From an uncultured virus (IMG/VR IMGVR_UViG_3300042542_005136) (taxonomy: Duplodnaviria; Heunggongvirae; Uroviricota; Caudoviricetes), in the IMG/VR virus record IMGVR_UViG_3300042542_005136: DNA of 20,000 nucleotides; one strand, 5' to 3'. A program made the position numbers and the translations under genes. Positions 9,742 through 11,430 of this stretch are shown in pieces (the stretch's first letter is position 1; every line of letters starts with the position of its first letter). A model generated the notes under the pieces. That model saw only the letters and a program-made list of their open reading frames with translations. It was not told the origin of the DNA and searched no databases.

Positions 9742-10083
9742 ATGGCTTCCCGCATTAAAACCGAATCATCTGGCGAAACCAGTGCCTTCACTACTGACGG
9801 CAAGCTCGTCATGAACTTTGGCAACCCTCACGTTGCATGGGGATTCTCCGTGAAAAGCCTTGAAGAATGGCTAATCACGCTTGAAGAGGCCATGTCAGTG
9901 ATGCCTGCTTGCCATAGTCGCTCCATTGAAACGCTCTATTTTTCTCTCAAGGCAGCACACAAGCGCCACCTGCAGGAGCATGAAGCAGTGATCAGCGAAG
10001 CCCCTACTTCCGACGATCTCATGGCCTACCTCACTTCTTACGCTGCCGCAATGACTTGGGAAGCAATGGAAGGGAGGAAATGA
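9742..10083 (+). CDS. Hypothetical protein
   Basis: ATG after a pyrimidine-rich leader; 113 aa. Confidence 0.75.
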   Translation: MASRIKTESSGETSAFTTDGKLVMNFGNPHVAWGFSVKSLEEWLITLEEAMSVMPACHSRSIETLYFSLKAAHKRHLQEHEAVISEAPTSDDLMAYLTSYAAAMTWEAMEGRK

Positions 10084-10256
10084 TTTCCCTGCCTGTTTGC
10101 ATGCCTTGGGAAGTGACGATCAAAAACGATGGCAATGTGAATATATTGTCTATCCTTGCTCCCACGAAAGAAAAGGCTCGCATCATTGCAGAAGAGCTTT
10201 ACCCTCATAGTCACTACGACATCCAGCTTCAGCCCGACTGGGACGACGCATCGTGA
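10080..10256 (+). CDS. Hypothetical protein
   Basis: GGAGG RBS and ATGA overlap; LAPTKEKARIIAEELYP. Confidence 0.7.
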   Translation: MISLPVCMPWEVTIKNDGNVNILSILAPTKEKARIIAEELYPHSHYDIQLQPDWDDAS

Positions 10257-10261
10257 TCACT

Positions 10262-10286
10262 GGCTCCTTCGGGAGCCTTTTTCTTT
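10262..10286 (+). terminator. Rho-independent terminator
   Basis: GGCTCC-TTCG-GGAGCC-TTTTTCTTT. Confidence 0.9.
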
Positions 10287-10448
10287 GTCCATGAATGATC
10301 ACCAGGGATGGGCTCTGTGGCATAGGTCCAGTCATCATATTCTGGATCATTCCTCAGCCATCGTGCCAAACGCTCACGCTCGCGTTCTTGTTCAGTCATT
10401 AGAAACTGGACAGCTTTCTATTGCGAGTCTAGCTGGCTTCCTATAGGC

Positions 10449-10476
10449 AAAAAAGAAGGGCCTTGCGGCCCTTCTT
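10449..10476 (-). terminator. Rho-independent terminator of the candidate ncRNA
   Basis: Minus strand AAGAAGGGCC-GCAA-GGCCCTTCTT-TTTT. Confidence 0.85.
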
Positions 10477-10481
10477 CCTTT

Positions 10482-10641
10482 GCTTGAGCTTCCGATGCCA
10501 CAGCCTCCCTCCCAAAGGGGAGCACTCCTCTCACTAGCCCATGCAATGCTAGGGACAGTCCTCGCGGAAAGTCCAGAGTGCTCAGCAGCGTCCACCCTTG
10601 CGGCGTCAGCGACGGGCCTTTCGGCCAGGACCAACTCAAGC
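10482..10641 (-). ncRNA. Candidate structured ncRNA, family unknown
   Basis: 9-bp stem closing the 5' and 3' ends, three GNRA hairpins, a perfect 8-bp internal helix; own extended -10 and terminator. Confidence 0.7.
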
Positions 10642-10647
10642 TTGCAA

Positions 10648-10656
10648 ATCATAGCA
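10648..10656 (-). promoter_or_regulatory. Extended -10 promoter (TGcTATGAT)
   Basis: Places +1 at about G10641, the first base of the closing stem. Confidence 0.6.
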
Positions 10657-10753
10657 CCACTACCAGCCACGGCAGCAAGCCTCACAATTGTGATACGGTA
10701 AACCTTGGCAGGGGCGACCCTCCGTAGTCTCACTTCTTCTTTTTCCTTTCCTG

Positions 10754-11110
10754 ATGCTTTTTCGTTTTCTTCTTTCAGCCTCCGTTGCCTTAGGCGCTCT
10801 GGTGCCTGCTGCTGCGGAGGCTAAGTCTCGCTGCGGCGAGGCCAGCTTCTACGGGCACGGTGACGGCTTTGCAGGCCAGACAATGGCTAATGGTCAGCCA
10901 ATGAACCCGCGAGCCATGATCACTGCCCACCCATCGCTTCCGCTCGGCACCCGCTTGAGAGTGGTGCGCAATGGTCGGAGCGTAATCGTCAAGGTGACTG
11001 ATAGAGGCCCTTGGTACGGTGGTAGGATTCTCGACCTGAGCTATGGCGCTTTTGCTCGCATCGCTCACCCTGGTAGCGGCCTGGCAACGGTCTGTTATCA
11101 GGTGGTGTAG
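10754..11110 (+). CDS. rlpA: RlpA-family lytic transglycosylase (DPBB domain) with signal peptide
   Basis: ASFYG, TMANG, TAHPSLPLGTRLRV, VKVTDRGP, RILDLSYGAF motifs. Confidence 0.9.
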   Translation: MLFRFLLSASVALGALVPAAAEAKSRCGEASFYGHGDGFAGQTMANGQPMNPRAMITAHPSLPLGTRLRVVRNGRSVIVKVTDRGPWYGGRILDLSYGAFARIAHPGSGLATVCYQVV

Positions 11111-11145
11111 GCACCAAGGTGGCCTAAGGGACAATGGAGGAAACC

Positions 11146-11177
11146 AAGGGCGCTTCGCATGGAGCGCCTTTTTCTTT
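11146..11177 (+). terminator. Rho-independent terminator
   Basis: AAGGGCGCTTC-GCAT-GGAGCGCCTTT then TTCTTT. Confidence 0.75.
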
Positions 11178-11265
11178 GGGCCTAGCCAGCTTCGTAACGA
11201 AAAGCAACTGAGCTCTTGCGAGATCCGGCTCGCTCGTTATCGTGCGCAGGTATCGCCTCTTAACC

Positions 11266-11430
11266 ATGCAAAGCATCATGCTGCCGCTGCTCACGCTCGC
11301 AAGCCTGGTGGCCTTGGCCACGCTACCCGTGCAGCAGCAAGACGACCTCACCGCCCTCCGCAAGTGCATGGCACTCCACCCCGAACGCTACTGCAGGCTC
11401 ACGCATGCCCCTAGTACAGTTGCACCATAA
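11266..11430 (+). CDS. Small exported protein with C-x8-C motif
   Basis: Hydrophobic N-terminus then KCMALHPERYCRLTH. Confidence 0.65.
   Translation: MQSIMLPLLTLASLVALATLPVQQQDDLTALRKCMALHPERYCRLTHAPSTVAP

What the first reader, a model, noticed from the sequence alone, without database searches (positions are those of the whole stretch)
10449..10656. Stand-alone ~160-nt structured phage ncRNA with its own promoter and terminator
Seen, minus strand and opposite to all neighbouring genes: extended -10 TGcTATGAT (10656-10648), 6 nt, then 5' GCUUGAGUU pairing with 3' AGCUCAAGC (10641-10633 / 10490-10482). Inside: GUCC...GGAC enclosing GGCC-GAAA-GGCC, CGUC-GCU-GACG and CC-GCAA-GG. A perfect GAGCACUC/GAGUGCUC helix encloses GGAC-UU-UCC-GCGA-GGA-CU-GUCC and CUAGC...GCUAG. 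A GCAA-capped terminator with U-tract follows the closing stem. Loops read GNRA only on this strand, and no convincing ORF is present. Inference: an independently transcribed multi-junction RNA that I cannot assign to a known family (could be a decoy, scaffold, packaging RNA or ribozyme).
Basis: partly seen in the sequence, partly recalled or inferred. Interest (0 to 1): 0.9.

Follow-up and report, generated by a model that had tools for sequence, protein, structure and literature searches.

The report
New structured RNA gene in cyanophages
A roughly 190-base RNA gene with its own promoter and terminator folds into an elaborate, evolutionarily conserved shape in a group of viruses that infect Synechococcus; it matches no catalogued RNA family and its job is still unknown.

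Summary
Window 10449-10656 (minus strand) holds an extended -10 promoter, a 160-nt core of ten helices (P1, P2 with P2a/b/c, P3, P4 with P4a/b, P5) and an intrinsic terminator.

- **Structure:** In 67 homologs, 95.8% of pair cells are paired and 49 of 53 pairs show compensatory changes, against 0 of 500 shuffles. A MAFFT-only alignment gives independent support.
- **Strand:** G·U cells outnumber A·C cells 362 to 18, which fixes the minus strand.
- **Coding:** Indels are not multiples of three, so it is not coding.
- **Known families:** Rfam 15 gives no match.
- **Distribution:** The family occurs once per genome in S-CBS4-like cyanosiphoviruses. That includes the isolate Synechococcus phage S-CBS4, where it sits in an unannotated gap.
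- **Context:** It is nearly always divergent from a secreted DPBB/RlpA-like gene.
- **Expression:** Lake metatranscriptome contigs cover just this RNA.
- **Conserved core:** Nineteen near-invariant bases cluster at the P1/P2/P3 junction (GCC-GNRA-GGGUG and AUCGGA).

Best reading: a stable, stand-alone, trans-acting folded RNA that acts as a binding platform. The function is inferred, not shown. The main rival is a riboswitch-like leader of a small downstream ORF. It is a new family; interest is moderate to high.

The parts
10648..10656 (-). Extended -10 promoter TGCTATGAT of the RNA gene. No conserved -35 box.
   Evidence: Read. TGnTAnnnT sits at the same place in 63 of 68 distinct homologs. 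It is one of only 3 TGNTAYGRT sites in the 20-kb window.
10449..10643 (-). Predicted primary transcript of about 190-195 nt, running from a start near 10641-10643 to the U-tract at 10449-10454.
   Evidence: The ends are inferred from the promoter and terminator positions. Contigs from four RNA libraries cover 10470-10629. The ends themselves were not mapped.
10633..10641 (-). P1, 5' strand (GCUUGAGUU).
   Evidence: Pairs with 10482-10490. Eight of 9 pairs show compensatory change, and the U·G pair is kept in 64 of 67 sequences.
10590..10631 (-). P2 domain. GUCC/GGAC closes a four-way junction with hairpins P2a (GAAA loop), P2b (GCU loop) and P2c (CC-GNRA-GG). The stretch GCC-GNRA-GGGUGGAC is near-invariant.
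   Evidence: P2 has 4 of 4 pairs and P2b 4 of 4 pairs with double changes, and the P2c pairs are invariant. The P2c loop is GNRA in 67 of 67 sequences.
10585..10589 (-). P3, 5' strand (GCUGC), pairing with 10497-10501.
   Evidence: Five of 5 pairs show double changes and 98.5% of cells are paired. The helix was also predicted from the MAFFT-only alignment.
10520..10583 (-). P4 domain. GAGCACUC/GAGUGCUC encloses P4a (internal loop, mostly GNRA-type cap) and P4b (loop with conserved CAUGG), followed by the junction GUGAGG.
   Evidence: P4 has 8 of 8 pairs with double changes, and P4a and P4b covary.
10507..10519 (-). P5 hairpin (CCCUU-UGG-GAGGG), of variable length in relatives.
   Evidence: Five of 5 pairs show double changes and 91.7% of cells are paired.
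10491..10496 (-). Invariant single-stranded AUCGGA joining P3 to P1.
   Evidence: Conserved at 97% or more in 67 sequences and invariant in the MAFFT alignment.
10482..10490 (-). P1, 3' strand (AGCUCAAGC).
10449..10478 (-). Intrinsic terminator T1: a 12-bp stem, a GCAA loop and a U-tract.
   Evidence: Read. An equivalent hairpin with a T-run is present in 62 of 67 homologs by rule and in 5 more by eye. The loop is GNRA on this strand in 44 of 67. The consensus scan also flags the hairpin.
10691..10699 (+). Back-to-back extended -10 box TGATACGGT of the divergent DPBB gene. This is context, not part of the RNA.
   Evidence: It is conserved as TGnTACGGT in the alignment.
10754..11110 (+). Divergent neighbour: a 118-aa secreted DPBB_1 (RlpA-like) protein.
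   Evidence: Pfam DPBB_1, E = 1.3e-22. It is adjacent and divergent in 65 of 68 RNA loci, and in 35 of the 38 loci found without using it.
10229..10399 (-). Conserved 56-aa ORF downstream of T1, with the motif DPRN..DYD.W.YG.EPIPGD.SW. Its function is unknown.
   Evidence: tblastn and ORF listings. Fifteen database homologs, all unnamed or 'hypothetical'.

Best explanation
**Shown.** This is a real gene for a non-coding RNA, carried once per genome by S-CBS4-like cyanosiphoviruses.
- A host-type extended -10 promoter starts transcription at or next to the first base of P1.
- A strong intrinsic terminator stops it 3-6 nt after P1.
- The product is therefore a discrete RNA of about 190 nt with both ends locked in helices.
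- It folds into P1, a P2 four-way junction, P3, a P4 three-way junction and P5.

**Inferred.**
- The peripheral helices vary freely, but 19 near-invariant bases cluster at the P1/P2/P3 junction: G, GGUCCU, GCC-GNRA-GGGUG and AUCGGA. The RNA most likely works in trans as a folded binding platform. That pocket would hold a specific partner, and the GNRA loops would brace the fold.
- I consider a host or phage protein somewhat more likely as the partner than a small ligand.
- It probably acts early in infection as a decoy or ribonucleoprotein component. It is unlikely to act through coding, long antisense pairing or control of a downstream gene.
For: - **Structure:** 33 of 47 pairs are compensatory in the MAFFT-only alignment. 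In 67 sequences, 95.8% of cells are paired and 49 of 53 pairs carry double changes, against 0 of 500 shuffles.
- **Strand:** 362 G·U against 18 A·C cells. GNRA loops are found in P2c (67 of 67) and in the terminator (44 of 67).
- **Own transcription unit:** the promoter is kept in 63 of 68 homologs and the terminator in 62 of 67 by rule, plus 5 by eye.
- **Not a leader:** the small downstream ORF is on the same strand in 42 of 68 loci, on the opposite strand in 11 and undetected in 15, yet the RNA and terminator are intact in all.
- **Not coding:** core lengths mod 3 are 22/17/28, and only 221 of 636 indel runs are multiples of 3.
- **Copy number:** one copy in 5 of 5 near-complete genomes.
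- **Expression:** contigs from four lake RNA libraries cover 10470-10629. Elsewhere in 9800-11300 they cover only a 151-nt piece of the DPBB gene, in one run.
- **Conserved core:** it clusters at the junction.
Against: - No partner, ligand or phenotype is known. The trans-acting binding role is inference from architecture only.
- The 42 of 68 loci with a same-strand small ORF just after the terminator fit a cis-regulatory reading too.
- The metatranscriptome evidence is from assembled contigs. It shows neither strand, ends nor level, and DNA carry-over cannot be formally excluded.
- The large alignments were fitted to the model and so lean towards it.
- All members come from one phage lineage, so the link with the DPBB gene may be plain synteny.
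Confidence: 0.55

Rival explanations
1. Riboswitch-like or attenuator leader. The 160-nt fold senses a ligand or protein and sets how much transcription reads through terminator T1 into the conserved small ORF (10399-10229).
For: The ORF lies on the same strand 74-200 nt after the core in 42 of 68 loci. The layout is aptamer-like: a conserved junction core followed directly by a terminator.
Against: - In 11 loci the ORF is on the other strand, and in 15 it was not detected, yet the RNA and T1 are fully conserved.
- P1 and the 12-bp terminator do not overlap. I saw no conserved alternative (antiterminator) pairing, though this was by eye only.
- The spacer carries -10-like boxes (TATGCT or TAGACT) and, in one group, an AGGAG before the ATG. 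This hints that the ORF has its own promoter.
- The RNA-library contigs stop inside T1, which is a weak hint only.
Confidence: 0.15
2. A new ribozyme, either self-cleaving or acting on another RNA, whose catalytic core is the invariant junction.
For: It has three multi-helix junctions. A few invariant unpaired bases (AUCGGA, GGGUG) sit beside freely varying helices. This pattern is shared with ribozymes; that comparison is recalled general knowledge.
Against: No Rfam ribozyme model matches. No pseudoknot or other tertiary covariation was found among the top mutual-information pairs. RNA-library contigs run uninterrupted through 10470-10629, so no abundant cleaved form is evident. Contigs are poor evidence for this.
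Confidence: 0.1
3. A base-pairing regulatory sRNA that uses the single-stranded AUCGGARG or the CAUGG loop as a seed against a host or phage mRNA.
For: It is a stand-alone transcript with a terminator, like bacterial sRNAs. It carries short invariant unpaired stretches.
Against: The invariant unpaired stretches are only 5-6 nt long. Ten covarying helices are far more structure than a seed-presenting sRNA needs. No target search was made.
Confidence: 0.08
4. Not an RNA gene: a protein-coding stretch (ORF 10392-10733), a plus-strand 5' leader of the DPBB gene, or a DNA-level element.
For: A 113-aa ORF overlaps the region. The plus strand also folds well, z = -2.69. The element always lies upstream of the DPBB gene.
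Against: The frame is not conserved. Treating the plus strand as the RNA would turn the 362 G·U cells into mismatches. The promoter, terminator and GNRA or UUCG loops all read on the minus strand. The DPBB gene has its own -10 box 34 bp beyond the RNA's -10 box.
Confidence: 0.02

Closest known systems
Orphan complex-folded environmental or phage ncRNAs (GOLLD, ROOL, IMES-1 to IMES-4). The names and properties are recalled; I saw only the abstract of bioRxiv 10.1101/2024.12.08.627333 in the listing.
   Same: A stand-alone RNA with multi-helix junctions and strong covariation. It occurs in phage or environmental DNA, is visible in metatranscriptomes, and has no known function.
   Different: It is much smaller: about 160 nt of core against roughly 600-800 nt. 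It does not match their Rfam models. There is no evidence of multimerisation: the conserved CAUG in the P4b loop is not kept palindromic in variants such as CAUUGG.
Candidate structured RNAs mined from IMG/VR (Fremin et al. 2023, PMC10690425). I read passages of the text and searched supplement tables 3 and 5.
   Same: The data source (IMG/VR) and the type of evidence (covariation) are the same. Two of their candidates lie next to DPBB_1 genes in aquatic Caudovirales: DNAVirus_786 (74 nt) and DNAVirus_8392 (106 nt, with a terminator and some Synechococcus hosts).
   Different: Their candidates are 29-151 nt long with 1-4 covarying bases in the rows I saw. None was described as a 160-nt, ten-helix RNA. 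Whether any is a fragment of this RNA could not be checked, because the alignment files (supplements 1 and 2) could not be searched.
phi29-type packaging RNA (pRNA). Its properties are recalled.
   Same: A phage-encoded RNA of about 170 nt with its own promoter, a closing 5'/3' helix and a three-way junction. Its structure is conserved more than its sequence.
   Different: pRNA belongs to phi29-like podoviruses with protein-primed DNA. Here the isolate relative S-CBS4 has a large terminase, a portal and a tape-measure protein. The RNA lies among early or replication genes. No Rfam match was found.
Riboswitch aptamers, including ones released as short terminated transcripts that act in trans. 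The SreA/SreB example is recalled.
   Same: Conserved junction core, variable peripheral helices, and a terminator immediately after P1.
   Different: There is no consistent downstream gene, no visible expression platform, no match to any riboswitch model and no known ligand.

Membership tests
Any Rfam 15 family (4227 models) | A covariance-model score at or above the family's gathering threshold. | tested here: not met
   There were 0 matches in the window at gathering thresholds. On 10300-10800 at E <= 10, the best of 7 matches scored 17.7 bits against a threshold of 55, and the strongest ones lie on the terminator hairpin. Twelve divergent relatives at E <= 1 gave no family on the core.
Independent sigma-70-type transcription unit | A conserved promoter just upstream and an intrinsic terminator just downstream, on the same strand as the structure. 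| tested here: met
   TGnTAnnnT is present in 63 of 68 homologs, ending 0-5 nt (5 in most) before the model-hit start, which is 2 nt before P1. A hairpin with a T-run is present in 62 of 67 by rule and in 5 more by eye. The transcript ends were not mapped experimentally.
Riboswitch or cis-regulatory leader | A regulated gene downstream on the same strand in (nearly) all members. | tested here: not met
   A same-strand small ORF is present in 42 of 68 loci, on the opposite strand in 11 and undetected in 15.
Riboswitch or cis-regulatory leader | An expression platform: mutually exclusive pairing between the aptamer and the terminator. | tested here: inconclusive
   P1 and T1 are separate, with a 3-6 nt linker. 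No conserved alternative helix was noticed in the alignments, but no systematic search was made.
Riboswitch or cis-regulatory leader | Specific ligand binding. | not testable with these tools
   This needs in-line probing or ITC.
phi29-type pRNA | Encoded by phi29-like, protein-primed podoviruses, and matching the pRNA model. | tested here: not met
   The isolate relative S-CBS4 has terL, a portal and a tape-measure protein. No Rfam hit was found.
Known self-cleaving ribozyme classes | A match to the class model, and site-specific cleavage. | tested here: not met
   No model matches. Cleavage itself cannot be tested here.
tRNA or tmRNA | A cloverleaf or tRNA-like domain recognised by ARAGORN or Rfam. 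| tested here: not met
   ARAGORN finds 0 genes in the window. Rfam finds none.
Protein-coding gene | A conserved reading frame, with indels in multiples of three. | tested here: not met
   Core lengths mod 3 are 22/17/28. Only 221 of 636 indel runs are multiples of three. There is a frame break in L016.

The most novel reading that the evidence does not exclude
The RNA is a trans-acting aptamer 'sponge' made at once on infection. Its invariant junction pocket would capture a host signalling nucleotide, a metabolite or a defence protein, making it an RNA counterpart of the protein sponges that phages use against bacterial immunity. Alternatively, it is the first member of a new ribozyme class. 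Nothing found here excludes either reading. The architecture fits both: a stand-alone transcript, a strong host-type promoter, a terminator, a conserved pocket and variable scaffolding.
Probability: 0.12. Interest if true: 0.9.

Novelty: new variant of a known kind. Interest (0 to 1): 0.65.

Why it matters
Few stand-alone, complex-folded RNAs are known in phages, and most large ones still lack a function. This one is compact at about 160 nt and is supported by unusually dense covariation. It is also visible in natural RNA libraries.

Importantly, it is present in a cultured phage, S-CBS4, with a cultured host, Synechococcus sp. CB0101. Its role can therefore be tested directly by deletion, pull-down and probing.

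The RNA also fills an unannotated 416-bp gap in a RefSeq phage genome. It could be added to RNA family databases, which would improve the annotation of cyanophage contigs.

Tried and rejected
- **Coding ORF 10392-10733:** rejected.
- **Plus-strand 5' leader or riboswitch of the DPBB gene:** rejected by the G·U against A·C counts and by the orientation of the promoter and terminator.
- **RNAalifold's alternative pairing:** it paired GGUCC and GGAC with AUCGG. This is rejected because GUCC/GGAC covary with each other (U-A to C-G, C-G to U-A) while AUCGGA never changes.
- **Host from genome scan:** the pattern hit in a 2.77-Mb Actinomycetes contig (L065), and those in L063 and L064, are chance matches and are not recognised by the model. 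The true genome-collection hits (L060-L062) are short MAG contigs of mixed taxonomy, so they say nothing about the host.
- **blastn of the window region against 50,697 phage records:** no match. S-CBS4 was reached only through proteins and the covariance model.
- **Pseudoknots or tertiary pairs:** none found by mutual information. The highest-ranking column pairs are all pairs of the model, and the few off-model pairs further down show no consistent base-pairing.
- **Kissing-loop dimer through the CAUG of the P4b loop:** not supported, since variants such as CAUUGG and UCAUUC break the palindrome.
- **The RNA beside DPBB genes of other cyanophages:** no model hit in the whole records of S-PM2, S-CREM1, Elbi and S-CBWM1.
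- **Small ORF function:** no Pfam or PHROG family. The protein atlas gave a best score of 0.78, which is no lead. Homologs are unnamed.
- **Parts of 9800-11300 without RNA-library contigs** (the small ORF and most of the DPBB gene): no conclusion is drawn from these.
- **Prior print:** five full-text searches and one preprint check found no description of this RNA. The alignment supplements of PMC10690425 could not be searched.

Full report
**What is in the sequence.**
- An extended -10 box, TGCTATGAT, lies at 10656-10648.
- P1 starts seven bases after the -10 hexamer: 10641-10633 pairs with 10490-10482.
- GUCC/GGAC closes a four-way junction with three small hairpins: a GAAA loop, a GCU loop and CC-GCAA-GG.
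- The helix GAGCACUC/GAGUGCUC encloses a GCGA-capped hairpin and CUAGC...GCUAG.
- A 12-bp GCAA-capped terminator with a U-tract lies at 10478-10449.

The single-sequence fold is more stable than shuffles on this strand (z = -3.0, 0 of 200). The other strand gives almost the same result (z = -2.69), so thermodynamics alone decides nothing.

**Relatives.** blastn against 50,697 phage records found nothing. An exact 31-mer found seven near-identical IMG/VR contigs.

Searching with the neighbouring protein (10754-11110, Pfam DPBB_1, E = 1.3e-22, with a signal-peptide-like N-terminus) gave 51 loci.
- Forty-one of them hold the element just upstream of that gene on the opposite strand.
- Four are too short on that side to tell.
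- Six lack it.

A pattern built only from the RNA's conserved blocks hit at least 120 further viral stretches before the scan reached its limit. It also hit six genome-collection contigs. Three of those six are true hits on short MAG contigs, and three are chance matches.

**Structure.** A MAFFT alignment of 19 sequences, made without any model, gave 47 RNAalifold pairs, 33 of them with compensatory changes.

- In 31 distinct sequences, 95.5% of pair cells are paired and 49 of 53 pairs have double changes.
- In 67 sequences, 95.8% are paired and 49 of 53 have double changes. The covariation score is 0.691 against 0.08-0.12 when partners are slid by 1-3 columns, and no shuffle of 500 reaches the observed values.

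These two alignments are fitted to the model and lean towards it. The MAFFT result is the independent check.

RNAalifold's one disagreement was to pair GGUCC and GGAC with AUCGG. That is wrong, because GUCC and GGAC covary with each other while AUCGGA never changes.

The highest mutual-information column pairs are all pairs of the model, and the few off-model pairs further down show no consistent base-pairing, so no pseudoknot emerged.

**Strand and coding.**
- Pair cells include 362 G·U against 18 A·C. The helices would drop from 95.8% to 85.4% paired on the other strand.
- The P2c loop is GNRA in 67 of 67 sequences, and the terminator loop is GNRA in 44 of 67.
- The overlapping ORF 10392-10733 is not conserved. 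There is a frame break in the closest diverged relative.
- Core lengths are spread over all residues mod 3 (22/17/28), and only 221 of 636 indel runs are multiples of three.

**Transcription unit.**
- TGnTAnnnT precedes P1 in 63 of 68 distinct homologs, at a nearly fixed distance. Four more have TAnnnT without the TG at that spacing, and one has none.
- A stable hairpin running into a T-tract follows the core in 62 of 67 by an automated rule. The five misses show the same hairpin and T-run in the printed sequences.
- The RNA should therefore be about 190-195 nt long, with its 5' end in P1 and its 3' end in the terminator.
- Contigs from four lake-water metatranscriptome runs match 10470-10629 without a difference. 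Elsewhere in 9800-11300 they cover only a 151-nt piece of the DPBB gene, in one run. Contigs cannot show strand, ends or level, so this is supporting evidence of expression and not proof of a discrete transcript.

**Whose RNA it is.**
- The window is phage DNA: it carries a Sak-type annealing protein, a primase-helicase, an HNH endonuclease and a GP88-like protein.
- The primase-helicase is 56.5% identical over its full length to that of Synechococcus phage S-CBS4, whose host is Synechococcus sp. CB0101.
- The refined model finds the RNA in S-CBS4 at 64,540-64,728 on the minus strand (138 bits). It sits in a 416-bp gap with no annotated feature, between gp092 and gp093, the 'lipoprotein precursor'.
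- Five of five near-complete genomes (66-70 kb) have exactly one copy.
- Four other cyanophage genomes that carry a DPBB gene have none.
- S-CBS4 has a separate endolysin, a large terminase, a portal and a tape-measure protein.

**Context.**
- The DPBB gene is divergent from the RNA in 65 of 68 loci, and in 35 of the 38 loci found without using it.
- In two loci without a DPBB gene, the first divergent gene is a small secreted protein with a C..LHPERYCR motif. Its window homolog lies at 11242-11430.
- The two -10 boxes are back to back, 34 bp apart.
- A conserved 56-aa ORF follows the terminator on the same strand in 42 loci. In 11 loci it is on the opposite strand, converging on the RNA. In 15 it was not detected.
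- All these phages belong to one lineage, so the neighbourhood may reflect synteny rather than function.

**What it probably does.** In 172 consensus columns, 19 positions are conserved at 97% or more. All lie at or next to the P1/P2/P3 junction: the J1/2 G, GGUCCU, GCC-GNRA-GGGUG and the single-stranded AUCGGA. Helices P2a, P2b, P4a, P4b and P5 change sequence and length freely; cores range from 141 to 201 nt.

A conserved pocket carried on a variable scaffold is what binding RNAs and ribozymes look like. That comparison rests on general knowledge.

The RNA has its own terminator and no constant downstream gene. I therefore think it most likely acts in trans as a folded binding platform, either a decoy or a ribonucleoprotein component. 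This step is inference. Nothing here identifies a partner.

The riboswitch-like reading keeps some weight because of the 42 same-strand ORFs. Three observations weigh against it:
- The RNA persists unchanged where the ORF is inverted or absent.
- P1 and the terminator do not overlap.
- The spacer carries -10-like boxes and, in one group, an AGGAG before the ATG.

**Comparison with what is known.**
- No Rfam 15 family matches the window at gathering thresholds or at E <= 10. None matches the core in 12 divergent relatives. ARAGORN finds no tRNA or tmRNA.
- Five literature searches and a check of one preprint found no description of this RNA.
- The IMG/VR survey PMC10690425 lists 8,495 candidates of 29-151 nt (passages read). 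Two of them lie next to DPBB_1 genes: DNAVirus_786 (74 nt) and DNAVirus_8392 (106 nt, with a terminator and some Synechococcus hosts). These may be the DPBB leader hairpin or fragments of this RNA. The alignment files could not be searched, so partial prior listing cannot be excluded.
- In kind, it resembles the orphan complex-folded RNAs of phages and environmental DNA (GOLLD, ROOL, IMES; recalled). It is much smaller and unrelated by model.

**Verdict.** This is a new, well-supported RNA family of unknown function in a cultivable phage-host pair. I score interest at 0.65. The structure is certain and testable, and the function is open. Large-scale surveys have already shown that phage genomes hold thousands of unassigned structured RNAs, which tempers the surprise.

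Noticed in passing
window 10691-10723 (+): The DPBB gene has its own extended -10 box, TGATACGGT (10691-10699). It is followed by a conserved GNRA-capped hairpin (core GGCGAC, about 10707-10723) roughly 35 nt before the ATG. The hairpin is conserved in the 20-sequence alignment. It may correspond to DNAVirus_786 of PMC10690425.
   Followed up: partly
L021:2057-2187(-), L032, L023, L031, L074, L022, L035, L070 (alignment A8): In one subgroup of relatives, a second conserved element of about 85 nt follows the RNA's terminator on the same strand and has its own terminator. Fourteen of 35 predicted pairs show compensatory change. L031 gave no Rfam match. It is possibly a second small RNA gene.
   Followed up: partly
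window 10229-10399 (-): A conserved 56-aa ORF with the motif DPRN..DYD.W.YG.EPIPGD.SW. Its orientation relative to the RNA flips between phage subgroups. Its C-terminal KKKAPEGA is encoded by the hairpin of the plus-strand terminator at 10262-10277.
   Followed up: partly
window 11242-11430 (+); L061 3121-3351; L113 2732-2932: A small protein with a hydrophobic N-terminus and a C..LHPERYCR motif. In the two RNA loci that lack the DPBB gene, it is the first gene divergent from the RNA.
   Followed up: no
window 10682-10693: A perfect 12-bp palindrome, TCACAATTGTGA, lies between the two divergent -10 boxes and overlaps the TG of the DPBB promoter. It is not conserved in distant relatives.
   Followed up: no
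L028 and L033 (DPBB relatives without the RNA): These contigs carry long tRNA arrays next to the DPBB gene. L028 2132-2201 (+) gives a weak tmRNA-like match of 33 bits, below the gathering threshold. In S-CREM1, too, a tRNA lies just upstream of the DPBB gene.
   Followed up: no
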